A DNA stretch of 37,373 nucleotides. Source: a virus (lineage: Duplodnaviria; Caudoviricetes). The DNA lies in the IMG/VR virus record IMGVR_UViG_3300006737_000072, positions 1-37,373 of that record, one strand, 5' to 3'. The notes under the pieces were generated by a model. It was not told where the DNA came from and did not search any database. It was given only the letters and a program-made list of their open reading frames with translations. Shown one piece after another: positions 188-35,361 of this stretch. The position numbers were made by a program, and so were the translations under genes. Each line of letters opens with the position of its first letter. Positions within the stretch are counted from its first letter, which is position 1.

Positions 188-206
188 GATCTGGTCTCCT
201 TTGATC

Positions 207-258
207 TATTCTTCTCTTCTCTTCTCTTGGTCGCATCAGAGCGTGACATCCGTCACGG
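207..258 (-). repeat. Conserved element copy A: CCGTGACGGATGTCACGC-N4-ATGCGACC followed by (AAGAG)n
   Basis: 25/30 identity by eye to 6334-6363, in inverted orientation; both copies are followed by an AAGAG-repeat purine tract. Confidence 0.85.
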
Positions 259-273
259 GCAGGGCTGCCCATC

Positions 274-310
274 CCGCCCCCTCCGCAGAGGGGACAGGTG
301 GGGAGTCGTG
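274..310 (-). terminator. Conserved GC-rich 3' hairpin after the ardC-like gene (terminator or stabiliser, no U-tract)
   Basis: Minus-strand stem CTGTCCCCTC/GAGGGGGCGG with 2 G-U pairs; 32/37 identical to 1757-1793; lies just after the stop codon at 317. Confidence 0.55.
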
Positions 311-316
311 CTGGGA

Positions 317-1246
317 TCAGGCTGTAACAACCTCCTCCTTCTTCTCGGAGGTGGCTGCCTCCTCGGTGGTCCCGAGGATCACGGCTGCCGCCTTCTCGGC
401 ACGGGTGGCCCCGTAGTTCAGGGCGGTGGCATCCTCGCCGCAGCGATCCAGCCAGTTCTTGAGGTAGGCCACGCACTGCTCCTCGTTCAGGTCAGTGCCG
501 GTGTTCGCCATGATCATGGCTGCACCGATCTCGGCCACCAACTCCTCGCGGGCGTAGTCCTTGGACCCGAAGCCGCCGTCGAGTTTGCGACCGAGGCGTG
601 ACTTGGCCCCGGTGGCGTGGCAGCATTCGTGGGCCAGAGTCTGGGCGTAGCCCTTGTTTCCGTCCTTGAACTGCTTGACCTCGGGCATGTGGATGCAGTC
701 CATGGATGGGATGTAGCAGGCTTGATCGCCGCCGTCGTGGACCTGCACACCTTCGGCGTTGCACCAGTCGAGGCAGGTGGTCTCGGCGGCGGTGATGGCA
801 TCCTCGACCGAGAGGCCGGTTACGGGGCCGCAGATGCGGTCAAGGCGTGCTTCAAGTTTGGTCAACTCCTCGGCAGGCACATCGCACTGCTCGATGTTGA
901 ACACGTTGAAGGTCTTGAACAGCGGGATACGCTTCATCTCGCCATCCTCCTCCTTGTGGAGCCACTTCCAGAAGAAGACGGTGGTGGCCTTCTCGCCCTT
1001 GCGGACGGACCCGCCGAGGTTCTTGACCTGCTTGAAGGTGAGATACCACGGGCTGGAGTAGCCGTTGAAGGCCAGCATCAGAGAGTTCATGCCGGTGTAG
1101 GGGCGACCCGTGGACACCGACCGAGGGTAGGATCGACCTTGGGGGCCTTGGAGCCACGGCAAGATCCATGGCTTGATGTTGCCGGACTCAAGGGCGGTGG
1201 TGAGGGTGGTGACGGTGTTGGAACAGTGGTCTTGGAATTTGGTCAT
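317..1246 (-). CDS. ardC: ArdC-like antirestriction/ssDNA-binding protein with C-terminal zincin-like metallopeptidase domain
   Basis: Motifs PWILPW, TGRPYTGMN, YLTFKQVKNLGGSVRKGEKA, FNVFNIEQ, HECCHATG (HExxH), YAREELVAEIGA, YLKNW; RBS GGAGTATCCCA-ATG. Confidence 0.92.
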   Translation of the reverse strand: MTKFQDHCSNTVTTLTTALESGNIKPWILPWLQGPQGRSYPRSVSTGRPYTGMNSLMLAFNGYSSPWYLTFKQVKNLGGSVRKGEKATTVFFWKWLHKEEDGEMKRIPLFKTFNVFNIEQCDVPAEELTKLEARLDRICGPVTGLSVEDAITAAETTCLDWCNAEGVQVHDGGDQACYIPSMDCIHMPEVKQFKDGNKGYAQTLAHECCHATGAKSRLGRKLDGGFGSKDYAREELVAEIGAAMIMANTGTDLNEEQCVAYLKNWLDRCGEDATALNYGATRAEKAAAVILGTTEEAATSEKKEEVVTA

Positions 1247-1268
1247 TGGGATACTCCGGGAAAGGGGT

Positions 1269-1337
1269 TCAGATGAAGAGGCCGTTGCGGTCGCAGTCGG
1301 CGAGGAATTGTTCTTGTTCAGGGGTGAGTGGGGTCAT
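1269..1337 (-). CDS. 22-aa small ORF MTPLTPEQEQFLADCDRNGLFI
   Basis: AGGAGG Shine-Dalgarno; ATG 2 nt after the upstream stop; fills the gap before ardC. Not in the supplied ORF track. Confidence 0.6.
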   Translation of the reverse strand: MTPLTPEQEQFLADCDRNGLFI

Positions 1338-1339
1338 GG

Positions 1340-1684
1340 TCAATCCTCCTGTCCGGGGATGTCATCGAGGCTGTCGAAGCCAGAGAAGAAGTTGGGGTGA
1401 GTCTGGGGGATGAAGGCCAGAGAGCGGTCAGAGACCATGCTGGCGGAGCCGGGACGGTGCAGTTGGCGGATCTTGCGATTGCCGTCAGCATCGGTATTGA
1501 TCTTGGTGAACACGGTGGTCGTGCCAGAGACCGTGTGAAACTCCAAGGTGAAGGACAGGCCGCTTGGTCGGTCGCCCGTCAACTCGATGACGGAGGGAGC
1601 AACCGGGAACCACTTGCCGAGGCCGTGGTCGCGGACCAGCAGAACGAAGTCTGCGAGGGCGGGATGTGAGTCGATGCTGGTCAT
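1340..1684 (-). CDS. Hypothetical early protein (114 aa)
   Basis: AGGAGATCCC-ATG; directly downstream of promoter P1. Confidence 0.8.
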   Translation of the reverse strand: MTSIDSHPALADFVLLVRDHGLGKWFPVAPSVIELTGDRPSGLSFTLEFHTVSGTTTVFTKINTDADGNRKIRQLHRPGSASMVSDRSLAFIPQTHPNFFSGFDSLDDIPGQED

Positions 1685-1705
1685 GGGATCTCCTGTTGAA
1701 TGTGA

Positions 1706-1734
1706 ATCATAGCAAAGTGCCAGAGGTGTGTCAA
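1706..1734 (-). promoter_or_regulatory. Sigma70-type promoter P1
   Basis: TTGACA-17 nt-TATGAT with extended -10 TG. Confidence 0.88.
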
Positions 1735-1756
1735 GTGGCTGTCAGGGCCGCTCAGT

Positions 1757-1793
1757 CCGCCCCCTCCGGGGAGGGGACAGTTGAGGGGTCGTG
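1757..1793 (-). terminator. Conserved GC-rich 3' hairpin, second copy
   Basis: Same stem as 274-310 with a different loop (CCCG vs TGCG); immediately after the stop at 1795. Confidence 0.55.
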
Positions 1794-1794
1794 A

Positions 1795-2304
1795 TCACCG
1801 GCAGAGGTCGCGGTCGCCGTAGGCATCAAATTCGGCACGTTCACGGGCCACCTCGTACTCGGATTCAAGGCGGTCCTCCATGATGCGGTCGAATGGTCCA
1901 ACAACGTGGTCATGCTCCAGATCGCCCACCACATCCTTGAGGCCACCGTGGGTTTGACTGAGGGCGGTGTTCAGGAAGTATTCAAGCGGGGTCTGGCCCA
2001 CGAGATGACTGACCTTCAAGGCCCCGTCGTGGAACACGTTGGCTTCCCAAGACCAGTTGGTGGTCATGACGCGGGCGACGATTCGGCCCTCGATTTGCTG
2101 GTATCGGGCCAGAACGTAGAAGCCTTTCCAGACCCTGACCACAGCGAGAACGTCGCCTTCGGGCCGGGACAGGTCAGCGACCATGGCATCGTCGCAGGTG
2201 AACAAGGCCAGAGATTCGTGGCGGTCCATGCGGGCGTGCTTGGCCTCAAGGAACTCAGAGGCTTTGACGAAGCAGTCGAACGAGATTGGTGCGGATGGGG
2301 TCAT
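1795..2304 (-). CDS. Hypothetical early protein (169 aa)
   Basis: GGAGTATCCC-ATG; downstream of hammerhead HH1. Confidence 0.82.
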   Translation of the reverse strand: MTPSAPISFDCFVKASEFLEAKHARMDRHESLALFTCDDAMVADLSRPEGDVLAVVRVWKGFYVLARYQQIEGRIVARVMTTNWSWEANVFHDGALKVSHLVGQTPLEYFLNTALSQTHGGLKDVVGDLEHDHVVGPFDRIMEDRLESEYEVARERAEFDAYGDRDLCR

Positions 2305-2326
2305 GGGATACTCCAGTTGGGTTGGG

Positions 2327-2385
2327 TGGCAGGCTCATCAGTCCGGGGATGCCAGCCCCGAAGACGGCCCGAAGGCCGTTTCGCC
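2327..2385 (-). ncRNA. Type II hammerhead ribozyme HH1
   Basis: GGC-GAAA-CGGCC(UUCG)GGCCG-UC-UUCGGGG(CUGGCAU)CCCCGGA-CUGAUGA-GCC-UGCCA. Complete catalytic core, GUC cleavage triplet (2365-2363), and loop I/3' tail pseudoknot. Confidence 0.95.
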
Positions 2386-2395
2386 GTGGTCAAGA

Positions 2396-2794
2396 TCAGC
2401 GGTCCATGCTGGTCAGGGCCTCGATGATTTCGTCCAGCACCCCGCATGCCTTGAAGCCGCTGGAGTGGAACAGGGAGTCGGTGTTGATCGCCATCTCGCC
2501 ATCGTCAAACTCCTCGATCATCTTGGACACAGCCTCAGCGATCTCGGCACGGGAGATGGACCAGTCGTGGCCGACCGAATCATTGAAGGCGACCTGATAG
2601 TCGGAGCCGGGAGAGGTCTGGTACAGGTCGCCCCAGATCACTGCACCGTTGTCGATGTCGCCATCCCACTTGAAGCCGTAGTCGAACATCTCGACTCCAC
2701 GGTGGGAATACAGGAACCGAATGTGGACGGCATCCTTGGTGACGGCGAGGACGTTGACTTGAAGTTGGCCGAGATGGTAGATGGTGTTGGACAT
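2396..2794 (-). CDS. Hypothetical early protein (132 aa, start revised to MSNTIY)
   Basis: GGAGTATCCC-ATG at 2794; the longer start at 2821 falls inside the -10 box of P2. Confidence 0.82.
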   Translation of the reverse strand: MSNTIYHLGQLQVNVLAVTKDAVHIRFLYSHRGVEMFDYGFKWDGDIDNGAVIWGDLYQTSPGSDYQVAFNDSVGHDWSISRAEIAEAVSKMIEEFDDGEMAINTDSLFHSSGFKACGVLDEIIEALTSMDR

Positions 2795-2816
2795 GGGATA
2801 CTCCGTTGGGATGTTT

Positions 2817-2845
2817 ATCATAGCAAAGTGTTAAGGGTGTGTCAA
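2817..2845 (-). promoter_or_regulatory. Sigma70-type promoter P2
   Basis: TTGACA-17 nt-TATGAT with extended -10; shares CCTGACAGCCACTTGACACAC and CACTTTGCTATGAT with P1. Confidence 0.88.
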
Positions 2846-2852
2846 GTGGCTG

Positions 2853-3239
2853 TCAGGACCAATCGCCCCGGTCAGAGTTTTGAAGTTGCTTCTCCTCTCG
2901 GTCGCAGAAGTCACCGTAGTCGGCATCGGACGCATCCTGCTGGATCACATCGCAGAGCGTGATTTGGAGAAAGGATTTGCCATTGCCGCCGACAGCCTTG
3001 ACCGTGTACCCGAAGGCGTTCAGGGCATTGGTGAGGCGGTCAAGGATGTAGCGGCTACCACGGGTGTTGGTTAGGTCGCAATCCACGAAGGCGGCAGCAG
3101 TACCACCGCCGGACTCGGACAGCGTGAATTTCCAGTCAAACTTGATCTCTTCGCCGCACTGGGCAACGATCAGGTTGAAGGTGGACTCGATGGCGTTTTG
3201 TATGGCGAAGTTGAATTCGGAAGGGTTGGTCGGGTTCAT
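2853..3239 (-). CDS. Hypothetical early protein (128 aa)
   Basis: GGAGTATCCC-ATG; downstream of hammerhead HH2. Confidence 0.82.
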   Translation of the reverse strand: MNPTNPSEFNFAIQNAIESTFNLIVAQCGEEIKFDWKFTLSESGGGTAAAFVDCDLTNTRGSRYILDRLTNALNAFGYTVKAVGGNGKSFLQITLCDVIQQDASDADYGDFCDREEKQLQNSDRGDWS

Positions 3240-3261
3240 GGGATACTCCAGTTGGATCAGG

Positions 3262-3321
3262 TGGCAGACTCATCAGTCAGGGCATGCCAAGCCCTGAGAC
3301 AGGCCAGTGGCCTGTTTCGTC
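3262..3321 (-). ncRNA. Type II hammerhead ribozyme HH2
   Basis: GAC-GAAA-CAGGCC(ACU)GGCCUG-UC-UCAGGGC(UUGGCAU)GCCCUGA-CUGAUGA-GUC-UGCCA. All three stems show compensatory changes relative to HH1. Confidence 0.95.
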
Positions 3322-3334
3322 GGGGAAGGGGAGG

Positions 3335-3625
3335 TCAGTCGAGAAGGAGGCCCTCCTCGAAGTGATAGACCGCAGCCTCCCACCCTGTGATGTAGTGGGC
3401 ATATCCCCACTGGGCGTAGCCGACGGCATCCATCTCGCGGCGGATTTGGTCATGGCTGACGAATGCGACGGCATACTCGGACCCCTTGCCATCTTTGAAA
3501 ACCCGATGGGCCTCTGGGGTCCACTCGACGATGATGACCCAGCCGCCATTGACGGTCTTGGATTGAAGGATTTCGCAGCCATTGAGATGGGAGGGAAGGG
3601 CAACGATTGAGGTGATCTCGGTCAT
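3335..3625 (-). CDS. Hypothetical early protein (96 aa)
   Basis: GGAGATTCACC-ATG; first gene after promoter P3. Confidence 0.8.
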   Translation of the reverse strand: MTEITSIVALPSHLNGCEILQSKTVNGGWVIIVEWTPEAHRVFKDGKGSEYAVAFVSHDQIRREMDAVGYAQWGYAHYITGWEAAVYHFEEGLLLD

Positions 3626-3659
3626 GGTGAATCTCCGGTGCCAACAGCGGCACAGTCAG

Positions 3660-3688
3660 ATAGTAGCAGAAGGTCAACCCTGTGTCAA
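3660..3688 (-). promoter_or_regulatory. Sigma70-type promoter P3
   Basis: TTGACA-17 nt-TACTAT with extended -10 TG; a small hairpin GTGCCG/TGGCAC (3638-3653) sits near the predicted transcript 5' end. Confidence 0.8.
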
Positions 3689-3880
3689 ATGGTGGGTGAG
3701 CGTTAGGTGTCTGTTAGGGTCAGACATGGCACAGTGACATCATATGTCTGTCATAGATGCTCTGAGAATGTCGATTGCCCTACCCCAAACGGGTGTCACA
3801 ATCCATCCTTCAGCCCACATTCAGGCCCGACAGCCGTACCTATCGCACACGGCGGACCATCCACACGTAGAGTAAGAGCC

Positions 3881-4590: not shown

Positions 4591-6333
4591 ATGGACACCA
4601 CTTTGGTTTCAAACATCCGTACGGTCCTTTCAGGGGCCAAGGCTCCCGAGGACTTTGGGTGGGGGCCTAATGACGTAGCGGCGTGGAAAGAGTTGATCGC
4701 TGGGGACCCCGTGGCGTTCATGACTCTTGGTGTTTGGTCTCGGCGGGTCAAGGAGGTTGATCCAGTAACGGGTGAGGACCGGCCTGCGGTTCATCCGCTT
4801 GTGCCGTTCATCCCGTGGAAGGCTCAGGCCGACATGATCTACAGCATGGTGGCGGCGGTTGAGTCTGGTCAGGACATCGCTGTAGCCAAGAGTCGGGAAA
4901 CGGGCGTGTCGGTTATTAGTACCGCCATCTCGGTTTGGGGCTGGTTGTTCAAGAAGTGGGATGTGTTGTTGTGTTCTCGGACTGAGGCTCTGGTTGATCG
5001 GTCTGGTGACCCTGATACCCTGTTTGCCAAGGTTGAGCATGTCCTCAAGTACCTCCCGCCCCAGTGGCTGCCCTGCCCGTTGCAGGACTTGCAGTCAGGT
5101 GGACGGCGGAGGCGGCACTGTATTTTGGAGCATCCTGATGGAAACGCGATTACGGGTGAAGCAACGACGAGCCACATCGGTCGTGGTGCGAGAAAGACGG
5201 TGGTGGTTTTTGATGAGGCCGCTTCACAGGATCGCTTTGAGTCTGGTTGGCGGTCGGCGGCTGACACGGCTGCGAGTCGTTGGGCGGTCTCAACCCACTT
5301 GGTGGGGTCGTATTTCACGAACACTCTGTGGGAGACTGCGAAATCTACTGAGTCGCCCGTCCCGATTCTGCTGACCTACGTCGATGACCCACAAAAGTCG
5401 GCGGGGGGGTCTTGGACAATCGACCCAGACGGATCAATCACTGGGGACCCCGGTCGAAGTTACTACTGGTCACCATGGCTTGAAATGCAACGCAAGCGGC
5501 GGGATGTGCATGACCTTCGTGAGAACGTGTTGGCCCTGCCATCGTCCCAAGGTCGCGGGTTCTTCCCCGTGGTGGACACCGAACGTCAACGCCAGCACAT
5601 CCAAAAGCCCCGTCGATGCAACGTGGTGGACGGCAAACTGGTGGATTCACCTACCGGGCACTGGCGAATCTTCATGGAGCCGGACGAGAACTCCAATCTG
5701 GTCGCGTTTATGGACCCTGCCTACGGCACTGGATCAGCAAACGCCTGCATCGTGATGATGGATACCAACCTGAGAGAGGTGGTTGCCACATACGTTGACC
5801 CCACCTGCCCCCCTTACGACCTGTCGCGAGAGATCGTCATGGCTGCCCGTTCATGGGCTAGGGGTCGCTCAGACATGCTGATCGGCTGGGAAGTCAACGG
5901 GCCGGGTTCGTCCATGCACCATGACTTTGAACGCCTGCGATGGTTCAATATCTTTCACCACAAGCGATTAGGCCAGCGAGTCGAGACCAGAACCAAGCGA
6001 GTGGGCTGGACATCCACGCGGGTGACCAAGCGGGTCCTGTTTGCTGACCTTGCCCGCGCATTGGCCGACGACACAATCGTGTGTCCTGACGAAGAGATCA
6101 TTGACGAACTGGATTCCACGGTGGTTTACAAGGATGGGTCTTTGGGTCCCGCCCGGCTGGAGGTTGATGCTTCGTCCGGTGCAAGGGAAGCCCATGGTGA
6201 CCGGGTTGTTGCTTTCGCCGGGGCTGTGATGTTGCTCGACGATGCCAACCCAGACGCTGAACGCCCAGACCCCAACTACGGAATGCCCGATTTCAGCCTT
6301 GGGAACATGTTAAACATGGATGAACTGCTGTAA
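4591..6333 (+). CDS. terL: Terminase large subunit
   Basis: Walker A-like VAKSRETGVS, Walker B VVVFDEAA, nuclease acidic motifs FMDPAYG and HGDRVVA. Confidence 0.93.
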   Translation: MDTTLVSNIRTVLSGAKAPEDFGWGPNDVAAWKELIAGDPVAFMTLGVWSRRVKEVDPVTGEDRPAVHPLVPFIPWKAQADMIYSMVAAVESGQDIAVAKSRETGVSVISTAISVWGWLFKKWDVLLCSRTEALVDRSGDPDTLFAKVEHVLKYLPPQWLPCPLQDLQSGGRRRRHCILEHPDGNAITGEATTSHIGRGARKTVVVFDEAASQDRFESGWRSAADTAASRWAVSTHLVGSYFTNTLWETAKSTESPVPILLTYVDDPQKSAGGSWTIDPDGSITGDPGRSYYWSPWLEMQRKRRDVHDLRENVLALPSSQGRGFFPVVDTERQRQHIQKPRRCNVVDGKLVDSPTGHWRIFMEPDENSNLVAFMDPAYGTGSANACIVMMDTNLREVVATYVDPTCPPYDLSREIVMAARSWARGRSDMLIGWEVNGPGSSMHHDFERLRWFNIFHHKRLGQRVETRTKRVGWTSTRVTKRVLFADLARALADDTIVCPDEEIIDELDSTVVYKDGSLGPARLEVDASSGAREAHGDRVVAFAGAVMLLDDANPDAERPDPNYGMPDFSLGNMLNMDELL

Positions 6334-6398
6334 CCGTGACAGATGTCACGCATAAATGCGACCTAGATAAGAGAAGAGAACATAAGAGAAGAAAAGAG
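6334..6398 (+). repeat. Conserved element copy B: CCGTGACAGATGTCACGC-N4-ATGCGACC plus AAGAG tract
   Basis: Inverted copy of 207-258; contains the palindrome CGTGAC-N4-GTCACG. Confidence 0.85.
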
Positions 6399-23193: not shown

Positions 23194-24599
23194 CCCGACA
23201 AACACCTAGACGATATGGGCAAGGCAGCCCAGTTGGAAACCAAATCCGTGACAATATATCCAAGCAAGACCTTGGATCAATCATGCGGCCTGACCCCGAA
23301 ATGGGTACAAAGGACGCAGGTAAGTCTCTTGCGGCACTTCGCAACGGCGACTACCAAGGGCTTGAGGGCATTCAGTTTGGTGTGATGCAGGGCAATCCTG
23401 TAGCCATCTTGCCTGACGGTCATGCCGTGGTCATTTCTGCTGGCGAAGCAATGCAGGGTATCACCCAACGTAACAAGCGGCGGCAGCAAATCGGCGAGCA
23501 GATGGCTTACGACGAGGACGTTAAGCACTTTGCTGAGACCAACCGAAGAACCATGCAGCAACTGGTTGACGGCTTTGAGTTTGCCCCGGCTATCTCTGGC
23601 GGGTATATGTCACTGTACGAGTCCTCCCCCATGGAAACCATGCAGGAGTTGTTGCAGTATGACCGGGGCCAAAGAGAAGAGGCTACCCGCTCGCTGGTTT
23701 CCAAGCAAAGAACTGCCCGCAACAACACCATCAATAATTCCTTGAGCATGATGGCAAGAAATGCCAAGGGTTCGGGTGCAAGTGCAGATGAAGCGGGCCG
23801 CCTCCAAGTAGGCGTGGGACACTTACGCAACTTCGCTACACGCGCAGCACCGCTGGATGACCTGAACGAAGTGCTTGCCGACCCGGCTGCGTTGGCTGAA
23901 CTTCAGATGGCTTTGCAGGGGGTCAGTCCCGGCACTTTGTCAAAAAGCAAAAGGGCGTTGATCGACAACCAGCGTGACGCAGAGTTTGTTGGCGAGCCGT
24001 ATATGATGAACCCGCAACAAGACTACCCCGCGTTGCACTCTGCTTTGAAAACCATGTTTACTTCAGGCGGCATGGCAAATGCTATCAATGTAGACGCAGC
24101 AGTTGCCGCCGTTCTTGAAGCGGAGAATGTGATTGTTGACCCGGCATCCCTTCGTGCCAGCGCACGACTTGAAGTTAGCAGCCGCCTAAGCAAATATGGC
24201 ACGCCTAACAAAAGTGCGGAGCGTAAAGCGTTTGAAAAGGATGACACCAACGTACCAGATCGGTTTACGCCAAAGGGCGATGGGTACGTTGATGCGGGCG
24301 GCAGAGAATACACCCTCGAAGAAGTGAAATCTGATATTAACAAACGAGATTTTATCTCTCGTGCGATGAGTCTCGCTTCCGACTTTGTAAATCTTAACGA
24401 AATGCCTGAAAAGTATCAACGGCTCGCGGAAGCGGGCAGTGACGCACAAAAGCCACTAGTAGAACTTTACTTCTACTACGAGTCCATGCTTGACGGAAAG
24501 CGGGAAGCGGTTCAATCAGTGAAACGCATGGAAGAAAACCCTAGCGATATTCGGTCAAAACTAAAAACGATTCTTCAAGCAGCAGGATTTAACGTTTGA
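23190..24599 (+). CDS. Probable internal virion / ejection protein (469 aa)
   Basis: Helical, Cys-free, coupled to both neighbours. Confidence 0.65.
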   Translation: MTRQTPRRYGQGSPVGNQIRDNISKQDLGSIMRPDPEMGTKDAGKSLAALRNGDYQGLEGIQFGVMQGNPVAILPDGHAVVISAGEAMQGITQRNKRRQQIGEQMAYDEDVKHFAETNRRTMQQLVDGFEFAPAISGGYMSLYESSPMETMQELLQYDRGQREEATRSLVSKQRTARNNTINNSLSMMARNAKGSGASADEAGRLQVGVGHLRNFATRAAPLDDLNEVLADPAALAELQMALQGVSPGTLSKSKRALIDNQRDAEFVGEPYMMNPQQDYPALHSALKTMFTSGGMANAINVDAAVAAVLEAENVIVDPASLRASARLEVSSRLSKYGTPNKSAERKAFEKDDTNVPDRFTPKGDGYVDAGGREYTLEEVKSDINKRDFISRAMSLASDFVNLNEMPEKYQRLAEAGSDAQKPLVELYFYYESMLDGKREAVQSVKRMEENPSDIRSKLKTILQAAGFNV

Positions 24600-27500
24600 G
24601 CGATCCACTATTCGACAACATAAACCTCGACTTTGAGTTCTTAACCAGAGAGCAGGCGGCCCGGCAACGGTCTGCACCAACAGCCGAGGATATCTTCAAG
24701 TTCCTGCCGGGGATTGAGGATGTTGTTGATCGTGAAGCCTTTACAGCGGAGTACGACAAGGGCATTGCTGCGTTAATGAACTCCGACATTGATCGCATGG
24801 ACGGCTTCTTTGAAGCGTTTGGCGAAGAAATGTTTCGTCAAGAGCAGTTGTTGTTGGCGGTGGATGACCTTGACCTTAACCCCTTTACCGATGACAAAAC
24901 TGTTGAGGGAGAGACTGCGGCACGAAGAAGAGTTGTCGAAGCAAGAAGAGCCTTGGAAATGCAGGGCAAAGAGGGGGAGACCGGGGTATTTACAGCGCAG
25001 GGAGGTCGTGGTCTTGGCGAATCCATAAACGAGATGCTTGTCACGCCTGCCATCACTGCTTTTGGTGGCGGCCTTGCTGGTCTTTTTGGTGGTCCGGCAG
25101 CACCAGTAACTGTACCCGCTGGTATGGCTGTGGGGTACAAAGGGGGTCAGGCTCTTGGTGCGGCACGACTTGCTGACCGCGTTTACAACCAGTCCATGAT
25201 GGAGTACCAAAACAACCTGATGGAGGAAAACAGGAGAAGGTACATCAATGGCGAGGACATGATCTCTTACGACCTAGAAGACTCTAGGCTTTATGCTGGG
25301 CGTGCTGTTGCGGTCGAACTGATGATGGAGTTGACCACCTCAAGAATACCGGGTCTTCGCACAGTTCCAAAAGGTGCAAAAAAAACAGGAAAAGGGGTCG
25401 GCGGAAAAGCCGTCACAGACTTTACTGACGCAGAACTCAGTGCCATTCGCGGCGGAGCCAAACAACACGTTAGAAAATTTGCTGCTAACACTCTTAGGCA
25501 GTCGGGCCAAGAGGCGTTTGAAGAAGGGTTTGCAGGACTTGCCAATGATTCCCTTGCTGAATTGCAGGAGTTCGTTTCCGGCGACGAGTTAAATGTTCAA
25601 GGCCGGTTTGACGTAGGCGGGTATTTTCAAGATGCATTGCTTGGGGCAGTGGGCGGGTCTGCGTTTGGCAGTTTGCACTACACCCAACAAGCCGCCGCCA
25701 GTGTTGGGTTGCGTGCAGCCGAACGAGCGGCACTGGGACCGCAGGCAAGACAGGCCCGAGACACAGCAGCCGAAATTGCCGACATTGAATCAGGAGCATT
25801 GGAGGCGGACGCTTCTGAGTTTGGGGCTTTGAGCGAAGAGGCTCAACAAGAACGGGTTGATCAAACCAGAGAAGACGCAGAGGCCGCGAGACAAAGGGCA
25901 GCAGATGCTGGACAGCGTGCGTCTGACTTGCAGGCTGAAGCCGCAAAAGATGACGGACCCTCCATGGAGGAGCAGCAGTCAAAAATTGATGAGGCTGTCG
26001 CAGAGCGTGACGAAGCGTTTGCTGACTACAACAAGTTGGCTCGCCGGGTTCGTCTTTACAACGAAGTCTTTGGCAAGAAGGTGACAGACGCTGGCACGCA
26101 AACCGTCGAAGAACACCTTGGCAACATGAGCAAGCCCAAGACGAAGTCGGATGAAGGCGAAGCAGCATCTACGCCATTTAGCGTGCGTGCCAAGGCAGCA
26201 TACACCATTGCCGAAAAAGCAGCCGTGGCACTTGGTAACCGACTTGGCGTAAATGTAGTGTTTGTGGACGGTGGTCAAAACACCGAGAATGACTCCGCCA
26301 CTGGGTGGTTTGCATATCAAGTAGAGGCTAAAGATAGCAAGCCAACAGTAGTCCTTCGTAGTGCTGATGCCATTGGTCAAATAATCTCTCAAGGCGGGGC
26401 CAAGTCAGAAGTTGGCGCACTGTACCTTCGCGGCTTGGTGGCCCACGAGGCTATCCACGCGGTGCAGTTCTACAACCCAGAGTTGTACCGGCACATTCGT
26501 TCGTTAATGGATGACTCTCGGGTTCTTCAGGCTGCACAAAGTTACTCCAAGGACCTTTACCGAGTTGAGGGGCTGGGCAACACTCGTCCCGTGGCTCCCG
26601 GTACGCAGGCCCTTATGGCTTTGCTGCATACTGCCAACCCGGACTCTTCAGTGTTTGGCGAAGATGCCGCAGCCTTTGTCGAGGCTGAAGGTGCTGCACG
26701 ACTTATTGAAGAAGGTGCGAGAAAGTTTGACGGCAAGGTTGAAAGTTTGCTGGCTCGCATTGGATTATTGGGAGGAAAGGCACAGCATGCCCAACGAGTG
26801 CTGCGTGTTCTTGAGGCCGCCGCTGCCGAAGAAGGCGGCTTGGCCGCTGCCGAGGCCCCGGTAGGTGGGAGCCGTGCAACTTTGCTGGCGGGCATGCGGT
26901 TTGACCAGTTGCTTACGGGCGAGGCTCAGCGTGCCAAAGAAGAGCAAGAGCGTGAGGCTCGTGAGAAGGCGGCGGACGCACTTGAGGAGGAGATGCGTGA
27001 CGGGGTCACCCCTGAAGACGTAGACGCAGCCTTGGAAGAAGAAGGCATTGACCCAGACGAGGCAACCGAAAGTGATGTTGCCAAGGCCCGGATTGCTGTT
27101 GCGGTGGACAACAACATGCGTTCCGACAATCTTGCAGAGTTCTACGGGGCGACAGACGAAGAACTTCGCGTCACCATGTACCACGGAACAAGGTTCCCGT
27201 TTGCCGAGAGTGATGTCTTTGACCCATCGTTGTCAGAGTTGGGCCTGCACCTCACCGCCAACCCAATCGTGGCGAACACCTTTGCAGACTCACAACTCGG
27301 AACTGGTGACCAGCGTGTCTACCCACTGGTTGCTCGGATGGAAAACCCGTTGCGTCTGCTTGACCCAATGTCGTGGAACGAAACCACGGTTGGCGTTGGG
27401 GTCACATACGAACTTGGAATTCCTACCGCAGAAGCAATTGTTGGCATGCGACGTATGGAGGCGGACGCTTTTACAGATGTGGTGACTAGCAAGTTGGACG

Positions 27501-30500
27501 CTATGACTCGCGGCGTTCGCATGCGAAGGCTGGCTGATAAGACGGGCATGGACTTGCTTTTCAAGATTAGCGAGACTTTGCGAAATGATGGGCCGGAAGC
27601 AGCAGCGGAACAGATTCGCAAAATTGCCAACGCTCGCCAGAAAGTCATGACAAAGCAAGGCAGGGAAACACCTGTGTTTGCCAGAGAGGTTTACAACCGC
27701 CGAATGCAAAGGTACATCCAAAGCCTCGGTTATGACAGCGTTGTCTACGTCAACCGGGCCGAGATGGAAAACACCATAGGTGGAGGCACAGCCGGTAATG
27801 ACAACCTGCTTGCCTTCCCCAGCATTGCGGTGTCTGACCGACTTTCGCAAGAGGATTTGCGAGAAGAGATAGTTTCTGACGCGGTGTGGGCAGAGGAAGC
27901 CGAGAAAATGGGACTGCGTCCTGAAGATTCTCACATCGTCTTTGATGCAAATCAGATCAAGAGTGCAACAGGCAACAACGGCTCCTTCTCCTTGAATGCC
28001 AGCATTGCCAAGGCCCGGATTAGCCGACCCGGTCCCGACGTTGACTCAGGATCGCTGACATCTACGATGCTTGGTGACGTACCGCCTGAGCGACATGGCG
28101 AGTTGCTCGCGGCTGCTCAGGTTGCAGCAAACCTTGACCTTGAAGAGATCCGTCACACCGAATGGGTTGGCGAGATGCGGAAGTCGCCGCACGCCAACAC
28201 CCTGACCATTCCAACCGCAGCGGAGTTCACTGAGGTTGACTCCGAAGGCAACCCAAGAATCCGAGCGTTCCGCATTACCGGGACCAACGTGGTGTATGCA
28301 CTGAAGCGTGTTGAACAAGGGCAAGACGAAGACAACCCAACCTTTGACGGTTACGAGTGGACTGGCCTTGCGAACAACGAGACCAACGCACGCGACGTTG
28401 TTCCGATTGTTGCCGGTCATGCTATACTGATGGCGGACGGCAAGCCCGTTCGTGGAGACTACTTTGACGTTCGCAAGCCCGGATCGTTGGTCGGCAAGTT
28501 GCCCGCCTTGTATCGCCGTGTCGGCTTCAAAATCACAGGCCGTGTCGAGTTCGATCCACAGTTCTTAGACCCTGAAACATTCCCAGCACAACTTGAAGCA
28601 TGGAAGGCTGATGGCTGGAACCCGGAGTATAACTATGACGAAAGCAACCCCGAACCAGAAGCCGTTGGCGGAGAACGTGTCCCGAGCAACCTCCCTGCTG
28701 TCGAGTATGCCGTTCTTGACGGACTCTCAGAAGCAGAACTTTCAAGCATCCGTAGCGGCGGGCTTAGAGCATGGGTTGCTGTCGCCGAGCAGCGTTCAGG
28801 ATCTCCAGTCATCCGAAGCCGTGACGCTTCTCAGCAGGCTGAAGACGGCACACGACGAGTGGACGAGGGACGATCTGAGCAGCGAGATGTGGGAGATGTA
28901 TCAGGAAGACCCGCAGACGCTGTTGCAGATGGTGAAGGACGAGGAGAGCCTGATCAAGGAACTGGACGAGCAGCCGATGACACCGTTCGTCCAAGCACTG
29001 ATGGAGAGGCTCGACCTCAGCGAAAACGTCAGGGCCAAGTAAACCTCACCAAACTGGCTGTCCTTGCACAGGCAGAGGCACGCAACAAAGACGTTGCCGA
29101 ACTAGCCCGCATGATGATCGGGATGGACCTTCTGCCAGATGCAGAGTGGTATCGCCTGCACAAGGAGTGGAAAGACAGCGGCACGAAACTGGAGAGCAAG
29201 TCCCCAGAGGCTGTGGCTTTCCGCGAGTACGCTAATGCTCACGCTCGTTCCGTTGGGTTGCCCGGACGGAACACCAAGGGTTCAGGCCCTGTTGCCAAAG
29301 AGCAACGCAACCTTCTCCAGCGTGCGCTCAACTACCGCTCAATCGCCGCTGCGGGCCGCCTGAAGACTTTGCTGGGCATCGACGGGTCTGAGGTCTCGGA
29401 AGACCAAGCAGCCGATCTGAGGGCTTTGTACGTCGAAGCCATCGCTCAGGGTATTGCAGCCGTTAGTTCCAACAGTGAACTAAGTGACGCAGAGATGTGG
29501 TATGGAACCACGATCAGCAACATGGTCCGTGTTCTAAACAACCGTGTGCCGGGCCTTCGACGAACCGACCCGAACTTCCAAGAAAACCGTGTGGTCTTCA
29601 CCATGATTCTTGCCATCATGTCTAATGGTGAGAAGATCGACCGCAACATGGCGAAGGCTATCGAGGCGTTCAACACCTACGTTGAGACAGGTGAACTCAA
29701 GGCTCCTGCGGGTTACCGAGTGGGTGCTGACTTCGTCACCATCCAGCAGTTGCGTGAACACTTCGGCTCATGGACTGAGGTTGCCAACTGGATGAAGCAG
29801 CGTGGCACGGTAGGTGAAGTCAATGCCCGCATTCGCCAACTGAAGAAGGACATGGACGAGGCAGGTCAAGACAACGACCGGCTCAAGGAAATCTCTGGCG
29901 AACTGGTGGACCAAGACGGGTACAACGCTCTGGTCATCGGCCCCAAGATTGGCTCGTTCTACCTGAACATGAACGAGAACTGGAACCCCATCACCATGGA
30001 CATCTGGTTTACCAGAACCATCGCTCGGGTTGGGGGGATTACCACTCGTGTTCAGAAGCGTGCGACCTCGGACTTCAGGTTCTACCGCCGCTTGATCAGA
30101 TTGAGAAACCACTATGGCAACTCGATTGATCAAGACCGTCAATACATTCGTGAACGGGTCAGCCCCAAGCAACGCAAGACTGTTGACAACATCTTCGGTC
30201 GTATTGTCGAAGGCCGTCAGACCAAGCGGGACATGGGCAAGTTGGAGGAGTATCAGAAGGAGCATGCGGTCAAGTCTGGTGCTGAAGCCAACCGTGACGA
30301 GTGGGCCATATCGATTCACAAATACAACCCAGAGTTCCGCGACAACGAGAACCGTGCGTCCGTTCTTGACAAGGTGTCTCCGCAAGGCGAGATCGCCGAG
30401 GACTTCAACGACACGCTTGAAGCAGATCACAAGGCGTATCGCATTGCCAAGTTTAAAGAAGCAGACCCCCTAAAGAAGGTGGTTCTCACAGTGGTCAACG

Positions 30501-33500
30501 GTTACGCCAAGGACCGCGAGGCCGAGATGGATGCCCCCAACACTGGTGGAGAGCGTGCCGCCATGCGTGTCATCACCACCGAAGCGGTGGCTCGGGCTAA
30601 CGAAATCGTTGAAGAGCAAACAGGTAAGCCCGGTCGCATCACCAACGCTGCTGCACAAGCAAACCTTTGGTATCTGGAGAAGGGCATCTACTTTGCCATG
30701 GTCCAGTCCCCTCAGTACGGCGACCCTCGTGCGCAGGACTTTGCCTCAGCAGCAGACAAGGTCACGAAGGACATGGGCTTCTTCCTTGAGGGTGACGTTG
30801 ACCAAGGCGGCAGCGACCCCAAAATTGCCAAGGCTCGTGTCCACCCCGTTCTTGGCGACAGCAAGACTGCCGGTGAACACAAGGACTTCAACGACGCAGA
30901 CGGAGTAGAGGACGAGGACGCTCCCATTGCCGAGGCCGTGGTGGCACACGGTCGTATCTCCCGACCGCAACTGGAAGGCAGGCTCAATCAACTTTCCAAC
31001 AAGTTGTCTACGGATGAAGCCATGCTTGCCGAGATGTATGGCATCGCTCCGTTCATGAACGACACGCTCAAGAACATCGTCGATGAGCAAAAGGATCTGC
31101 TTGGAAGTCGATTGGGCATGTCCCCGGCACTGGCTGCTGACCGTGGCCTGACCGCTGGTCTCGCTGCCGCCAAGGCTGTTGCTCTGGCAGAGCGACGAAT
31201 GGCTCGCCAAGAAAGACAAGATGCCATCCGCAAGAAGCGTGACCAACTCAAGGCATCGGAAGCCAAGCGTATTGCCAAGTTAAAAGAAGGCTTCGCAGAG
31301 CAGAAGCAGAAGTTGCGTGACCAGTTCAAGGAGCGGCTCGCCAAGATGACCAAGGCCGAGCGAACCCGCAAGAAAGCGGCGTTGCAGCGTGCGTTGGAAG
31401 GTCGCATCAAGGCACTGGAGAATCAGGAAAAGAGGTACGAACGCAGAATCAAGAAGATGCAGAACAAGAACGCCGAGGTTGCTCAACTGCGTTCAATGCT
31501 GGTGGATATGGTTACAACCCACCTGCCCTCTGCGTCACGAGGCAAGTTCATCAAACGTCTGACTCGTAAGAACCTGACGGCTGGGCAGATGTCCAAGATA
31601 TCTGACGAGATCCTCCGCGAGTCTGCAATGGTTGACCTGCGTGGTGCGAAGCAGCGGGTCAAGGCTGCACGCAAAAAGTACGGGAAAAGCGGGCGAAAGA
31701 TGGCTAACGAGACCCGTGAGGCAATCGATGCCGACCTTGCCAAAGCGGAGCAACTCCTTACCACCGACCTAACCGAGATGGACTACGAGAGCATCCGTCG
31801 CTTGGCTGGCGAGGTAGAGGCACTGATCGGTGAAGCCAACGGGAAGTACGACGCTGACCGTGAGTCTTTCAAGGATGAGAAGAATCCGAGAAGCCAAGGC
31901 ATCATGACTCGAATCGAGGCGGTGCTTGACTTCTTGGTGGATCGTCCGGGCAAGCCTCGCAAGGGTCGTGCGATTGGCACTCGTAGGGCTGGAGAACTGG
32001 CAGGCGGGCTTGGTCGCAACGGTGGCTTGGACCTTCGGGCCGCCCTGTCCCTGATCGGATTGAAGGGTGAACACAAGTTGTTGACCCGTGCCGAGGACAG
32101 AAAGAAGTTGGATGCCCGCGAGTTGATCGAGGTTACCAACGCCGTCCTGCGTGAGTATGGCTACCGCAACCTGCAAGACTTTGTTGCCCGCACCTCCGGC
32201 AGTAAGGGCCTTGGTCGCCAAGAGTTTGTTGACTTCACCTACCGGGATAAAGAGGGTGACATTCAGGTGGTGACCCTGTCCTTGGGTCAGGCAATGAAGT
32301 TGCTTGCCATGGACGAACACACCATGGAGCAACTGCGAAAGCAGAATCGCAAAGACCCAACCAAGGTGCAGGAGATTGCGTTCACCAACGTGACCCAGCC
32401 TGTTGAGGGCGGCGAGTCAATCTTTGGATTTGACTTGGCGACAGACATCGAGACCTTCCGCGAGCAGATGCTTGACGAACGTCCAGAGTTGCATGAGATC
32501 ATCATGCGTCTGAAGGATGTCCGCAACAAGTTGCTTAAGCCAAAGGCTATGGCTGCCTTGTTCCGTCTGACCGGCAACACTCCCCCGTCCACCGAAGACT
32601 ACGAGCCACGCAAGATTCGCATGGACTCCCCCGCCGTCAAGGATGAGGACCAGATCGCACAGATGGCAAACGCTGGTACGGTTGGCCCTCGGTTTGCCGA
32701 GAACGCAGGCATGACCATTCGCCGTACGGGCGGGGGGGTTACCTTGGTCGGCGACTTCATGGGTGACTACATGGAGCATGCCGAGAACTCTCTCAACCTT
32801 GCACACATGGCGGAGCCAACCCGAATCCTGTGGTCAGTCCTGAGCGACCGGGAGGCAGGGGAAGCAATCGCCCGAGTTTACGGCGACGAGTACCTGTCCA
32901 ACCTTCGTATTCAAATCGGGTACGGCACTGGCCTGCTGCAAGCCAACATGGATGCTGGCCCGCTCGGTGAGATTGTTGCGATGGCTGCTGGGTCCGCCAT
33001 TGCCCTGAACGACATGACCTTCTTCAAGGTTCTGTTCGGGGGGCTGAACAATATGTTTCTGTCCCCGGACATCTCAGTTGCTCAGGCTATCACCGGCATC
33101 ACTCGTGCTTTTGAGTTGGTTGCGACGGGGCGACTGAACAACTTCATGGAGGAGAAGGTCTACCCCAACAGTGGTTATATGTGGGATCGAGACCACGCCT
33201 CCCACGTTGACCGCCGTGTTGTCTTCACCCGTGAGGATGGTCTTGCCAACGAAAAGGATCTTGCATCCTTCACTGATATCATGGAGTCCACGCTCACCTC
33301 CATGGGTGGGTTGATGGAGTCACTGGCCTCCGGCAACTTGTCCGAGACCAAGACGCACCTCAACGATATTCGCAAGGCTGTGTCCGGAATCAGCAAAGCG
33401 ATTCCCGTGTTGCGAGTGCTTGATCGTGTGATTCAGGCAGCCGCCGTTCTTTCCCAAGCAGACGCAGCGTCCATCACCAAAGAAGATGTGTTGGCTGGTG

Positions 33501-34324: not shown

Positions 34325-34834
34325 TGACGCGAGGTCGATCTCTTGCAGCGTGACATGCACGCCGTCCTCTGCTCCGTATTGCTTGGTCGCCGTCAGGTAA
34401 ATCACCTGAGAGTCATCAACGTACAGCACGTCGTTGATTGCATCCATGATCATCTTGGCAAGGTTGTCGATGTCAGGCCGGGCGGTCATGTAAGCGTGGG
34501 CATACTTCTCCAGCACCAAACCCTTTGAGTTGAAATGCTTCTTGGGTCTCTGGTATACGAACACCAAGGAGAGCCGGAGGGGTCGGTGCGAGGGTGTCCA
34601 TCCACTCGCCGCTGCTGCATGCTCCGCCGCAACCCTGACCGCCCCCTTCCATGCTCTTGCCTTGGGGTTCGCAATCGACACGGCCCTACCCTTGAACACC
34701 CGAGGGCGAGGCAAGGGGACGGGCCTGCCGTGTACCTTGAAGATTACAGGCCGTACGTCTTCTTGAGGATTGCCCTGATGTACGCCTTCGGCGTGTTCGC
34801 CTGCCTGCTTCTTGTGACTATCGAGTTCAGACAA
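34310..34834 (-). CDS. rusA: RusA-family Holliday junction resolvase (start uncertain, TTG)
   Basis: GRPVPLPRPR, RPDIDNLAKMIMDAIN, DDSQV and ATKQY motifs. Confidence 0.9.
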   Translation of the reverse strand: MSELDSHKKQAGEHAEGVHQGNPQEDVRPVIFKVHGRPVPLPRPRVFKGRAVSIANPKARAWKGAVRVAAEHAAAASGWTPSHRPLRLSLVFVYQRPKKHFNSKGLVLEKYAHAYMTARPDIDNLAKMIMDAINDVLYVDDSQVIYLTATKQYGAEDGVHVTLQEIDLASLPVA

Positions 34835-35361
34835 TGTCCAGCCTCTCTCTCATCCCTACTCTGATCGTAGGTCAACCTCACCAACTGGATGGCTTGGTTC
34901 ATATCAAGACCCAGCCCAGTCAGAACAGGATACCAACTGATCTTGGAGTCACCGTCACCATCAGGCTCAGGTTCAGGCTGAGGCTCAGGCTTTGCCGTGG
35001 CGGGACGAGAAGGGGTCTCCACGCCCTTCCGCTTCTTAGCCTGACGCGAGGCATCCATCACCCGCTTCTTGGCTGAGGAGCCATTGTGGTCCTCGAACCT
35101 TTGGATCTGGATTCCGCCTTCAACCACCTGCAACCAGTCAATGTCAACCATGCACTTGGCAAACCCGGCGGTGGTCTCCTCGTCAACTTCTTCGATGGTC
35201 CAGTGGGCAAGCAGTCCGTCCGTGGTCTGCTCGTCCGCAATGCACCAGATGTTGTAGAGGTGGCCTATGACCTCAGCCCTAGAGCATGTCAATGTTCTTG
35301 CCAGAGTTCGCACTCTGCCATCGCTTGATAGGGTTGTTCTCATCTTTATCCATGCGGGCAT
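34744..35361 (-). CDS. Phage replication initiation protein (lambdoid O/DnaT-like class)
   Basis: WIKMRTTL...VIGHLYNIW...ADEQTTDG...GFAKCMVDIDWL...FEDHNGSSAKKR; PEPQPEPEPDGDGD linker; GAGGAGG RBS. Confidence 0.8.
   Translation of the reverse strand: MPAWIKMRTTLSSDGRVRTLARTLTCSRAEVIGHLYNIWCIADEQTTDGLLAHWTIEEVDEETTAGFAKCMVDIDWLQVVEGGIQIQRFEDHNGSSAKKRVMDASRQAKKRKGVETPSRPATAKPEPQPEPEPDGDGDSKISWYPVLTGLGLDMNQAIQLVRLTYDQSRDEREAGHCLNSIVTRSRQANTPKAYIRAILKKTYGL

What the first reader, a model, noticed from the sequence alone, without database searches (positions are those of the whole stretch)
274..3690. Early region is built from repeated promoter-gene-ribozyme-gene-hairpin cassettes with conserved spacers and unrelated cargo
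Seen: P3 > 96 aa > HH2 > 128 aa; P2 > 132 aa > HH1 > 169 aa > hairpin; P1 > 114 aa > 22-aa sORF > ardC > hairpin. The cargo proteins show no similarity to each other that I can see. The spacers repeat: a promoter block (21-nt and 14-nt identities between P1 and P2), the GGAGTATCCC RBS (4 copies plus variants), the ribozymes and the 37-nt hairpin. Known analogue: promoter-stem-loop (PeSL) cassettes of T4-like phages that shuffle early genes by recombination. Inference: a modular array for swapping host-takeover or anti-defence genes, in which ribozymes act both as RNA processors and as homology anchors. I do not know of this combination being described.
Basis: partly seen in the sequence, partly recalled or inferred. 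Interest (0 to 1): 0.8.

Follow-up and report, generated by a model that had tools for sequence, protein, structure and literature searches.

The report
Swappable ribozyme-punctuated phage gene array
Related marine phages carry different sets and orders of small, likely early-expressed genes joined at repeated spacers; some spacers hold hammerhead RNAs predicted to cut the message and others an uncatalogued hairpin that fills the same slots in sister phages, so a known ribozyme layout likely doubles as a gene-swapping scaffold.

Summary
Observation confirmed; interpretation partly supported. The window is a partial genome of an uncultured marine podovirus-like phage. Its minus-strand block holds three sigma-70 promoters, two type II hammerheads with intact cores and covarying stems, two copies of a 53-57-nt irregular hairpin (HP), four identical RBS motifs, five orphan genes, a 22-aa ORF and ardC. 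Relatives really shuffle: 8 of 8 arrays that include the first promoter differ in gene content, one fragment inverts gene order, and 95 of 130 homology ends fall in spacers or at gene edges (20% expected). But ribozymes are not special anchors: only 7 of 35 distinct gene junctions hold one, and a sister lineage without detectable hammerheads shuffles the same cargo at HP and RBS repeats (65 of 96 ends). The unit swapped is mostly one gene, not a fixed promoter-gene-ribozyme-gene-hairpin cassette. Clustered phage hammerheads around variable genes, including an antirestriction gene, are known (Perreault 2011), as is repeat-driven shuffling (PeSL); this scan has noted similar arrays in other phages. 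New here: population evidence joining the two, and HP, which lacks a U-tract and an Rfam match and replaces the hammerhead behind the same genes. No RNA data; cutting is predicted.

The parts
3660..3688 (-). P3, sigma-70-type promoter (predicted)
   Evidence: 10 of 12 consensus, TG extension
3335..3625 (-). g96, orphan cargo gene; homologs in both lineages
   Evidence: no Pfam/PHROG/NCBIfam/PADLOC hit
3259..3322 (-). HH2, type II hammerhead with loop I/3' tail pseudoknot; predicted cut between 3298 and 3297, 58 nt before the next ATG
3240..3249 (-). RBS repeat GGAGTATCCC (also 2795-2804, 2305-2314, 1248-1257)
2853..3239 (-). g128, orphan cargo gene; its last codons differ from relatives where P2-g132 is inserted
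2817..2857 (-). P2 promoter with the 22-nt block shared with the HP/P1 junction
2396..2794 (-). g132, orphan cargo gene (13 close metagenomic homologs, no fold match)
2324..2386 (-). HH1, type II hammerhead; predicted cut between 2363 and 2362, 58 nt before the next ATG
1795..2304 (-). g169, orphan cargo gene with a conserved C-terminal tail that also recombines
1742..1794 (-). HP copy 1: conserved irregular hairpin directly after the stop codon
1706..1734 (-). P1 promoter (predicted)
1340..1684 (-). g114, accessory gene, gained or lost at the RBS-ATG
1269..1337 (-). 22-aa ORF, next to ardC in 11 of 11 arrays that show both
317..1246 (-). ardC antirestriction protein (ArdcN + zincin-like domain)
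259..311 (-). HP copy 2
205..256 (-). palindrome plus purine-tract element, a further shared spacer; second, inverted copy at 6334-6397
   Evidence: function inferred only

Best explanation
This is a hypervariable, likely early-expressed gene block in which single small genes are exchanged between related phages at a few repeated spacers, likely by homologous or microhomology recombination, while the hammerheads are predicted to cut the message and the hairpin likely punctuates it. Shown: the spacers (promoter, RBS-ATG, hammerhead, HP) are conserved, genes come and go mostly as whole units between them, and hammerhead alleles are tied to neither neighbour. Inferred: each hammerhead cuts 56-60 nt before the next start codon, leaving the downstream gene on a 5'-OH RNA that begins with stem I and the upstream gene on an RNA that ends in stem III, so every incoming gene gets a standard, insulated leader. 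HP most likely does the parallel job through a host protein (a double-strand-RNA cutter or a 3'-end protector), and is not a U-tract terminator. The repeats were probably selected as expression signals; their use as crossover points follows from being repeated and is not specific to the ribozyme.
For: Ribozymes: 11 distinct copies, 187 of 187 cells paired, 8 of 17 pairs with compensatory change, including the pseudoknot; 0 of 500 shuffles as high; 13 of 13 copies in 8 arrays keep the core and a cut-to-ATG distance of 56-60 nt. Shuffling: 8 of 8 close arrays that include P3 differ, 10 of 10 with any gene before the 22-aa ORF differ; g128>g132 here, g132>g128 in L044; 95 of 130 homology ends in spacers or within 10 nt of a gene edge against 19.9% expected; sister lineage 65 of 96 against 24.2%; L009 and L010 are 99.8-100% identical over 3 kb on each side and differ by one gene plus HP between 17-nt RBS repeats; Logan contigs show joints that skip g114 (1334-1689) and P2-g132 (2383-2884, short side 21 nt). 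Slot swap: g96 and g109 families are followed by a hammerhead in L043, L053, L002, L042, L051 and by HP in L047, L022, L010, L055. HP: 361 of 368 cells paired, 5 of 16 pairs compensatory; 3-11 nt after a stop; 26 of 43 contexts run straight into an RBS with no promoter, 40 of 43 have fewer than 5 T in 8 nt behind the stem. Tandem phage hammerheads cut in vitro and in E. coli (PMC3088659).
Against: 30 of 130 homology ends lie more than 20 nt inside genes, 14 of them in g169, and an X8 joint (1866-2401) fuses g132 to the g169 tail and removes HH1: exchange is not confined to spacers. The ends are not independent, so the binomial p-value is not to be trusted, and alignments also end at gene edges when neighbours are merely unrelated. 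All relatives are metagenome assemblies; gene-HH-gene adjacency could be chimeric where strains share an identical ribozyme. HH2 scores below Rfam's gathering cut-off. HP folds as well or better on the opposite strand and fails the E. coli RNase III box rule (A-U pairs at three proximal-box positions, PMC1540722). 'Early' and cargo function are inferred from position.
Confidence: 0.66

Rival explanations
1. One reading: a dedicated cassette system in which ribozymes are the recombination anchors and whole promoter-gene-ribozyme-gene-hairpin units are swapped.
For: At hammerhead-hammerhead junctions homology runs through the whole 90-nt spacer; ribozyme body alleles occur with several upstream and downstream genes, and one distinctive tail is shared by two different bodies, so crossovers in or around ribozymes do occur.
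Against: 7 of 35 distinct junctions hold a hammerhead; none found in 21 sister-lineage loci that shuffle the same genes; exact identity inside the two window ribozymes is 10 nt against 20-22 nt at RBS and promoter; units are single genes.
Confidence: 0.12
2. The hammerheads are passengers that spread by hitch-hiking on RBS-linked recombination and matter little for expression.
For: Dispensable: absent from the sister lineage loci and from close relative L054; one variant deletes HH1.
Against: Perfect stem maintenance with many compensatory changes and fixed spacing to the start codon imply selection on structure and position.
Confidence: 0.08
3. HP is a PeSL-like terminator or attenuator that ends each transcription unit.
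For: GC-rich stem right after a stop codon; 14 of 43 contexts are followed at once by a promoter, 3 more by one further on; PeSL stems are poly-G/poly-C terminators (PMC2839356).
Against: 26 of 43 contexts lead directly into a promoterless gene; 40 of 43 lack a U-tract; invariant C-C and A-C mismatches in the basal stem (20 of 20 distinct cores, 7 of 7 found by the model alone) are not needed for termination.
Confidence: 0.2
4. HP is a folded single-strand DNA site for a recombinase (attC-like), making this an integron-like array.
For: Imperfect hairpin with invariant mismatches right after each stop codon; folds on both strands.
Against: No integrase among the 33 window proteins scanned (genome partial); breakpoints do not share one position in HP but scatter over RBS, promoter and stop codon; U-G to C-G one-sided changes favour the mRNA strand.
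Confidence: 0.06
5. The variety of arrays is largely assembly chimerism among co-occurring strains.
For: All sources are metagenomic; sample X8 holds several variants at once; some ribozyme copies are identical between strains.
Against: The window order is one contig in X1 and X2 (possibly the source samples) and recurs in L001 and L068; many junctions have no long repeat (g114, P2-g132, the 17-nt RBS deletion); chimerism needs real strains with different neighbours in the first place.
Confidence: 0.06

Closest known systems
Clustered hammerhead ribozymes flanking single genes in prophages (Perreault et al. 2011, PMC3088659; section 6 read whole; Rfam RF02276)
   Same: Type II hammerheads with loop I/3' tail pseudoknot between small genes whose identity is not constant; an antirestriction gene in the block (ardA there, ardC here); proposed cutting of long phage transcripts into gene-length mRNAs.
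   Different: That paper's main text has no occurrence of 'recombination' or 'shuffl' (supplements not read). Here strain-level comparison shows genes and ribozyme alleles being exchanged, and a non-hammerhead hairpin takes the same slot. ardC here is not next to a hammerhead.
PeSL promoter-stem-loop cassettes of T4-like phages RB49/phi1 (Arbiol et al. 2010, PMC2839356; abstract and passages)
   Same: Repeated sigma-70 promoter, GC-rich stem-loop and Shine-Dalgarno between orphan genes in a hyperplastic region; gains, losses and replacements break at these repeats.
   Different: 40-kb podovirus-like phage, not T4-like; ribozymes present; HP often has no promoter and lies upstream of the -35 box; terminator activity and mini-circles are not shown here.
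RNase III sites of the T7 pre-mRNA such as R1.1 (PMC8708148, PMC1540722; passages)
   Same: Long irregular intergenic stems of about two helical turns in a phage polycistronic region, with an internal loop about 10-11 bp below the apical loop.
   Different: HP is G+C-rich and lacks the A-U pairs of the E. coli proximal and distal boxes; host unknown; no cut shown.
Establishment genes of conjugative plasmids with ardC and repeated upstream regions (PMC6294495, PMC7213743; abstracts only)
   Same: ArdC among early-acting genes, each behind similar strong promoter regions.
   Different: Plasmid, repressor-controlled; no ribozymes mentioned in the abstracts seen.

Membership tests
Type II hammerhead ribozyme (RF02276) | Core CUGANGA and GAAA, A15.1-U16.1, NUH triplet | tested here: met
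   13 of 13 copies, GUC triplet
Type II hammerhead ribozyme (RF02276) | Stems I and III closed by loops, stem II open, all paired | tested here: met
   100% cells paired, 8 compensatory pairs
Type II hammerhead ribozyme (RF02276) | Pseudoknot between loop I and the 3' tail | tested here: met
   5 bp, one compensatory change in L042
Type II hammerhead ribozyme (RF02276) | Rfam gathering score | tested here: inconclusive
   HH1 40 bits passes, HH2 31.4 bits does not
Type II hammerhead ribozyme (RF02276) | Self-cleavage | not testable with these tools
   needs in vitro transcription or RNA end mapping
Clustered phage hammerhead arrays (Perreault 2011) | Several hammerheads flank single genes or short blocks of varying identity in a phage | tested here: met
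   1-3 per array in 8 arrays, varying genes
PeSL cassettes | Repeated sigma-70 promoter with Shine-Dalgarno before orphan genes | tested here: met
PeSL cassettes | Stem-loop and promoter in one composite element | tested here: inconclusive
   HP precedes a promoter in 14 of 43 contexts, an RBS only in 26; P2 and P3 have no HP
PeSL cassettes | Stem-loop acts as transcription terminator | not testable with these tools
   no U-tract in 40 of 43; activity needs assay
PeSL cassettes | Gene gains and losses break at the repeats | tested here: met
PeSL cassettes | Excised mini-circles | tested here: inconclusive
   backward joints in X5 and X8 are equally explained by linear strain variants; only contigs were available
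PeSL cassettes | T4-like phage | tested here: not met
   about 40-kb genome, P22/SU10-like portal, no close cultured relative
E. coli-type RNase III site (for HP) | About two helical turns, at least 11 bp between cut and loop | tested here: inconclusive
   upper stem 10-12 bp, about 20 pairs in all with mismatches (rule)
E. coli-type RNase III site (for HP) | A-U/U-A pairs at proximal box positions 2-4 and UA/UG distal box | tested here: not met
   by inspection, 84 stems: no run of three A-U pairs; rule from PMC1540722; host enzyme may differ
Any Rfam family (for HP) | Covariance-model match | tested here: not met
   no hit at E<=1 in the window or at E<=2 in 6 related loci
Integron cassette array (attC) | Integron integrase nearby and one fixed crossover point | tested here: not met
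   no integrase in 33 proteins scanned (genome partial); scattered breakpoints; attC features recalled, not from a call
ArdC | ArdcN ssDNA-binding domain plus zincin-like domain | tested here: met
   PF08401 E 6.6e-29, PF18818 E 3.5e-34

The most novel reading that the evidence does not exclude
HP is a new class of self-cleaving (or self-processing) RNA: a 53-57-nt element with invariant C-C and A-C mismatches, kept almost unchanged across phages whose terminases are only 35-37% alike, and interchangeable with a hammerhead behind the same genes. The array would then be a natural kit of plug-in RNA cutters that both insulate incoming anti-defence genes and serve as their swap points.
Probability: 0.1. 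Interest if true: 0.85.

Novelty: new variant of a known kind. Interest (0 to 1): 0.46.

Why it matters
The purpose of bacterial and phage self-cleaving ribozymes is still described as largely elusive (PMC6765202, passages). This family offers natural controls: the same cargo gene behind a hammerhead, behind HP, or behind a bare RBS, in near-identical strains. That makes 'ribozyme as insulator of freshly acquired genes' directly testable with reporters, and HP is a ready candidate for a cleavage assay, by the same context logic that led to twister ribozymes. The variable cargo beside ardC is also a pool of candidate counter-defence proteins with no family match.

Tried and rejected
No RNA holder listed for the region: expression and cutting could not be examined. 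pattern had a one-base spacing error and found nothing; repeated correctly. HP not found in GTDB genomes (exact pattern), cultured phages (4 weak hits, E 6), or 55 other viral loci from a relaxed pattern (best 17.5 bits): no host or wider family identified. No close cultured relative (terL at most 34% over under half its length). Cargo function: no hit in Pfam, PHROGs, PADLOC, NCBIfam, ESM Atlas for g169 and g132; g132 model pLDDT 61.6 with no fold match at E<=0.001; g169 model pLDDT 48.6, not searched. No tRNA genes in 12 loci. Circles: the X5 joint 2847-257 matches the linear HP-promoter junction of L048/L058/L061; X8 joints 2810-2325 and 2764-2299 fit either a strain with a hammerhead before g132 (as L043, L053) or a circle, so not counted. 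Initiator homolog search gave 8 close relatives only, so the origin idea for the purine-tract element stays untested. Rejected: fixed five-part cassette; HP as U-tract terminator; HP as attC. Paper searches returned no paper that ties ribozyme repeats to DNA-level shuffling; searches gave nothing useful on RNase III.
Full report
Setting. The window is the whole record and a partial phage genome: terS, terL (4591-6333), portal, capsid, tail genes and a 3242-aa protein with an ART-PolyVal domain on the plus strand; RusA, a replication initiator and the block in question on the minus strand. A 40,351-bp contig (L068) carries the same phage. Holders are mostly marine DNA runs. The best cultured terL match is 34% over a third of the protein. 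'Early region' is my inference from strong sigma-70 promoters, small genes and ardC.

Observation. Rfam gave 2 hits at E<=1 in 37 kb, both Hammerhead_II, at 2324-2386 (40 bits) and 3259-3322 (31.4 bits, below the cut-off of 37). The four GGAGTATCCC copies are the only ones in the window; P1 and P2 share 22 and 14 nt; the two ribozymes share only 10 nt exactly, their RBS-ATG ends 20 nt; cargo proteins are unrelated.

Relatives. A terL scan gave 13 loci; pattern scans for the hammerhead tail and the hairpin gave more. By terL/terS/ardC identity they fall into lineage A (terL 97-100%, ardC present), lineage B (terL about 78%, no ardC hit) and lineage C (terL 35-37%). Short fragments without terL were placed by ardC or by shared genes and promoter type. 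I dropped duplicate loci of one contig and L001/L068, which repeat the window.

Shuffling is real. Among 13 lineage-A arrays, the 8 that include P3 all differ between P3 and the 22-aa ORF, and so do all 10 that show any gene there; 2 start too late and L050 lacks the ORF. g96 is followed by g128, g132 or g109; g128 by g132, g169 or g67; L044 has g132 before g128, the reverse of the window. Of 130 distinct ends of BLAST segments of 150 nt or more (ends within 30 nt of a region border dropped, ends within 12 nt merged), 95 lie in spacers or within 10 nt of a gene edge, against 19.9% expected; 30 lie more than 20 nt inside genes, 14 in g169. These ends are not independent. Logan contigs show a joint skipping g114, one skipping P2-g132 with a short 21-nt side, and one fusing g132 to the g169 tail, which deletes HH1.

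The ribozymes. Eleven distinct copies pair in 187 of 187 cells, with 8 of 17 pairs compensatory, including the pseudoknot; 0 of 500 shuffles reach this and slid controls pair at 27-38%. All 13 copies in 8 arrays keep the core and lie 56-60 nt before the next ATG. Body alleles recur with different neighbours on both sides, so crossovers occur around and probably within them. Yet they are not privileged: of 35 distinct adjacent gene pairs, 7 are joined by a hammerhead, 10 by HP plus promoter, 5 by promoter, 3 by HP, 10 by RBS alone. A model built from these copies found none at E<=0.1 in 21 lineage-B and 7 lineage-C loci (up to 6-10 kb around the match, not whole genomes), nor in close relative L054. 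Lineage B shuffles alike: 65 of 96 ends at spacers or edges against 24.2%, and L009/L010, 99.8-100% identical over 3 kb each side, differ by one gene plus HP between 17-nt RBS repeats.

The hairpin. HP is a 53-57-nt irregular stem: 361 of 368 cells paired, 5 of 16 pairs compensatory in 23 copies (the count of compensatory pairs was reached by 48 of 500 shuffles, the other main measures by 0). The search pattern fixed many columns, so I checked the 7 of 20 distinct cores found only by the covariance model: C-C, G-C, A-C in the basal stem and one U-G stay invariant there too, and U-G/C-G exchanges favour the mRNA strand (67 of 69 strong hits used, 2 truncated dropped). It folds about as well on the other strand. 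It lies 3-11 nt after a stop; 26 of 43 contexts run into an RBS without promoter, 14 into a promoter, 3 other; 3 have 5 T in 8 nt. No Rfam match; not seen outside this phage group. The g96 and g109 families are followed by a hammerhead in lineage A and by HP in lineage B. It fails the E. coli RNase III box rule read in PMC1540722, though its size fits; the host is unknown.

Mechanism. Shown: conserved spacers, variable single genes, breakpoints enriched at spacers. Inferred: recombination at 7-22-nt identities or across the 90-nt ribozyme-RBS block swaps genes; hammerhead cutting yields gene-length RNAs with hairpin-protected ends; HP does a parallel job through a host protein. I put the whole at 0.66, shuffling alone at about 0.85.

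Prior knowledge. PMC3088659 (passages, section 6 whole): several hammerheads flank single genes of varying identity in prophages, cut in vitro and in E. coli, and flank ardA; its main text does not mention recombination; supplements not read. PMC2839356 (abstract and passages): PeSL shuffling and mini-circles. PMC4122927 seen in a listing only. PMC6765202, PMC1540722, PMC8708148: passages. PMC6294495, PMC7213743: abstracts. Searches found no paper linking ribozyme repeats to gene shuffling; the library lacks most subscription journals. Earlier notes of this scan describe similar arrays in other phages, including hairpins in ribozyme slots; none overlaps this DNA. My own scans also found unrelated phages with arrays, up to 9 hammerheads in L084.

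Verdict. A real, well-supported instance of a known layout, with unusually clear strain-level evidence of gene swapping and one uncatalogued RNA motif. New variant of a known kind; interest 0.46.

Noticed in passing
window 205-256 (-) and 6334-6397 (+): Two inverted copies of a palindrome followed by a purine tract. From recall, such tracts lie inside phage initiator genes as origins; the initiator here (34747-35361) has none, so these may be detached origin-like sites. In some relatives the element is read as the tail of a cargo gene.
   Followed up: partly
L047 2712-2930: HP is cut short by an insert with two T-loop-like pieces resembling tRNA fragments; ARAGORN finds no tRNA. Possibly a third kind of punctuation.
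   Followed up: partly
L002 9050-8925 (-): A structured-looking 5' leader between P3 and a third hammerhead, with no gene; no Rfam match.
   Followed up: no
L084 5950-10509; L081; L076-L079: Unrelated phages with hammerhead arrays, 9 copies in L084, each just after a stop and before an RBS.
   Followed up: partly
L019, L017, L045 (lineage C): Phages with terL only 35-37% alike carry a nearly identical HP, other long hairpins after stop codons, and in L045 a cargo family shared with lineages A and B, suggesting a shared host and gene pool.
   Followed up: partly
window 1269-1337 (-): The 22-24-aa ORF is conserved and precedes ardC in 11 of 11 arrays that show both: the one fixed junction in the block.
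   Followed up: partly
window 1795-1885 (-): The last 25-30 codons of g169 are near-invariant and appear fused to other genes (L054, X8 joint), acting as part of the HP repeat.
   Followed up: partly
window 24596-34324 (+): 3242-aa virion-region protein with an ART-PolyVal ADP-ribosyltransferase domain, likely an ejected polyvalent protein.
   Followed up: no
L002 7356-7385, L061 92-122: A promoter reduced to its -35 half fused straight to an RBS, a likely scar of promoter-to-RBS recombination.
   Followed up: no
L078 8556-8621 (-): Rfam DUF3800-VIII RNA near a hammerhead cluster.
   Followed up: no
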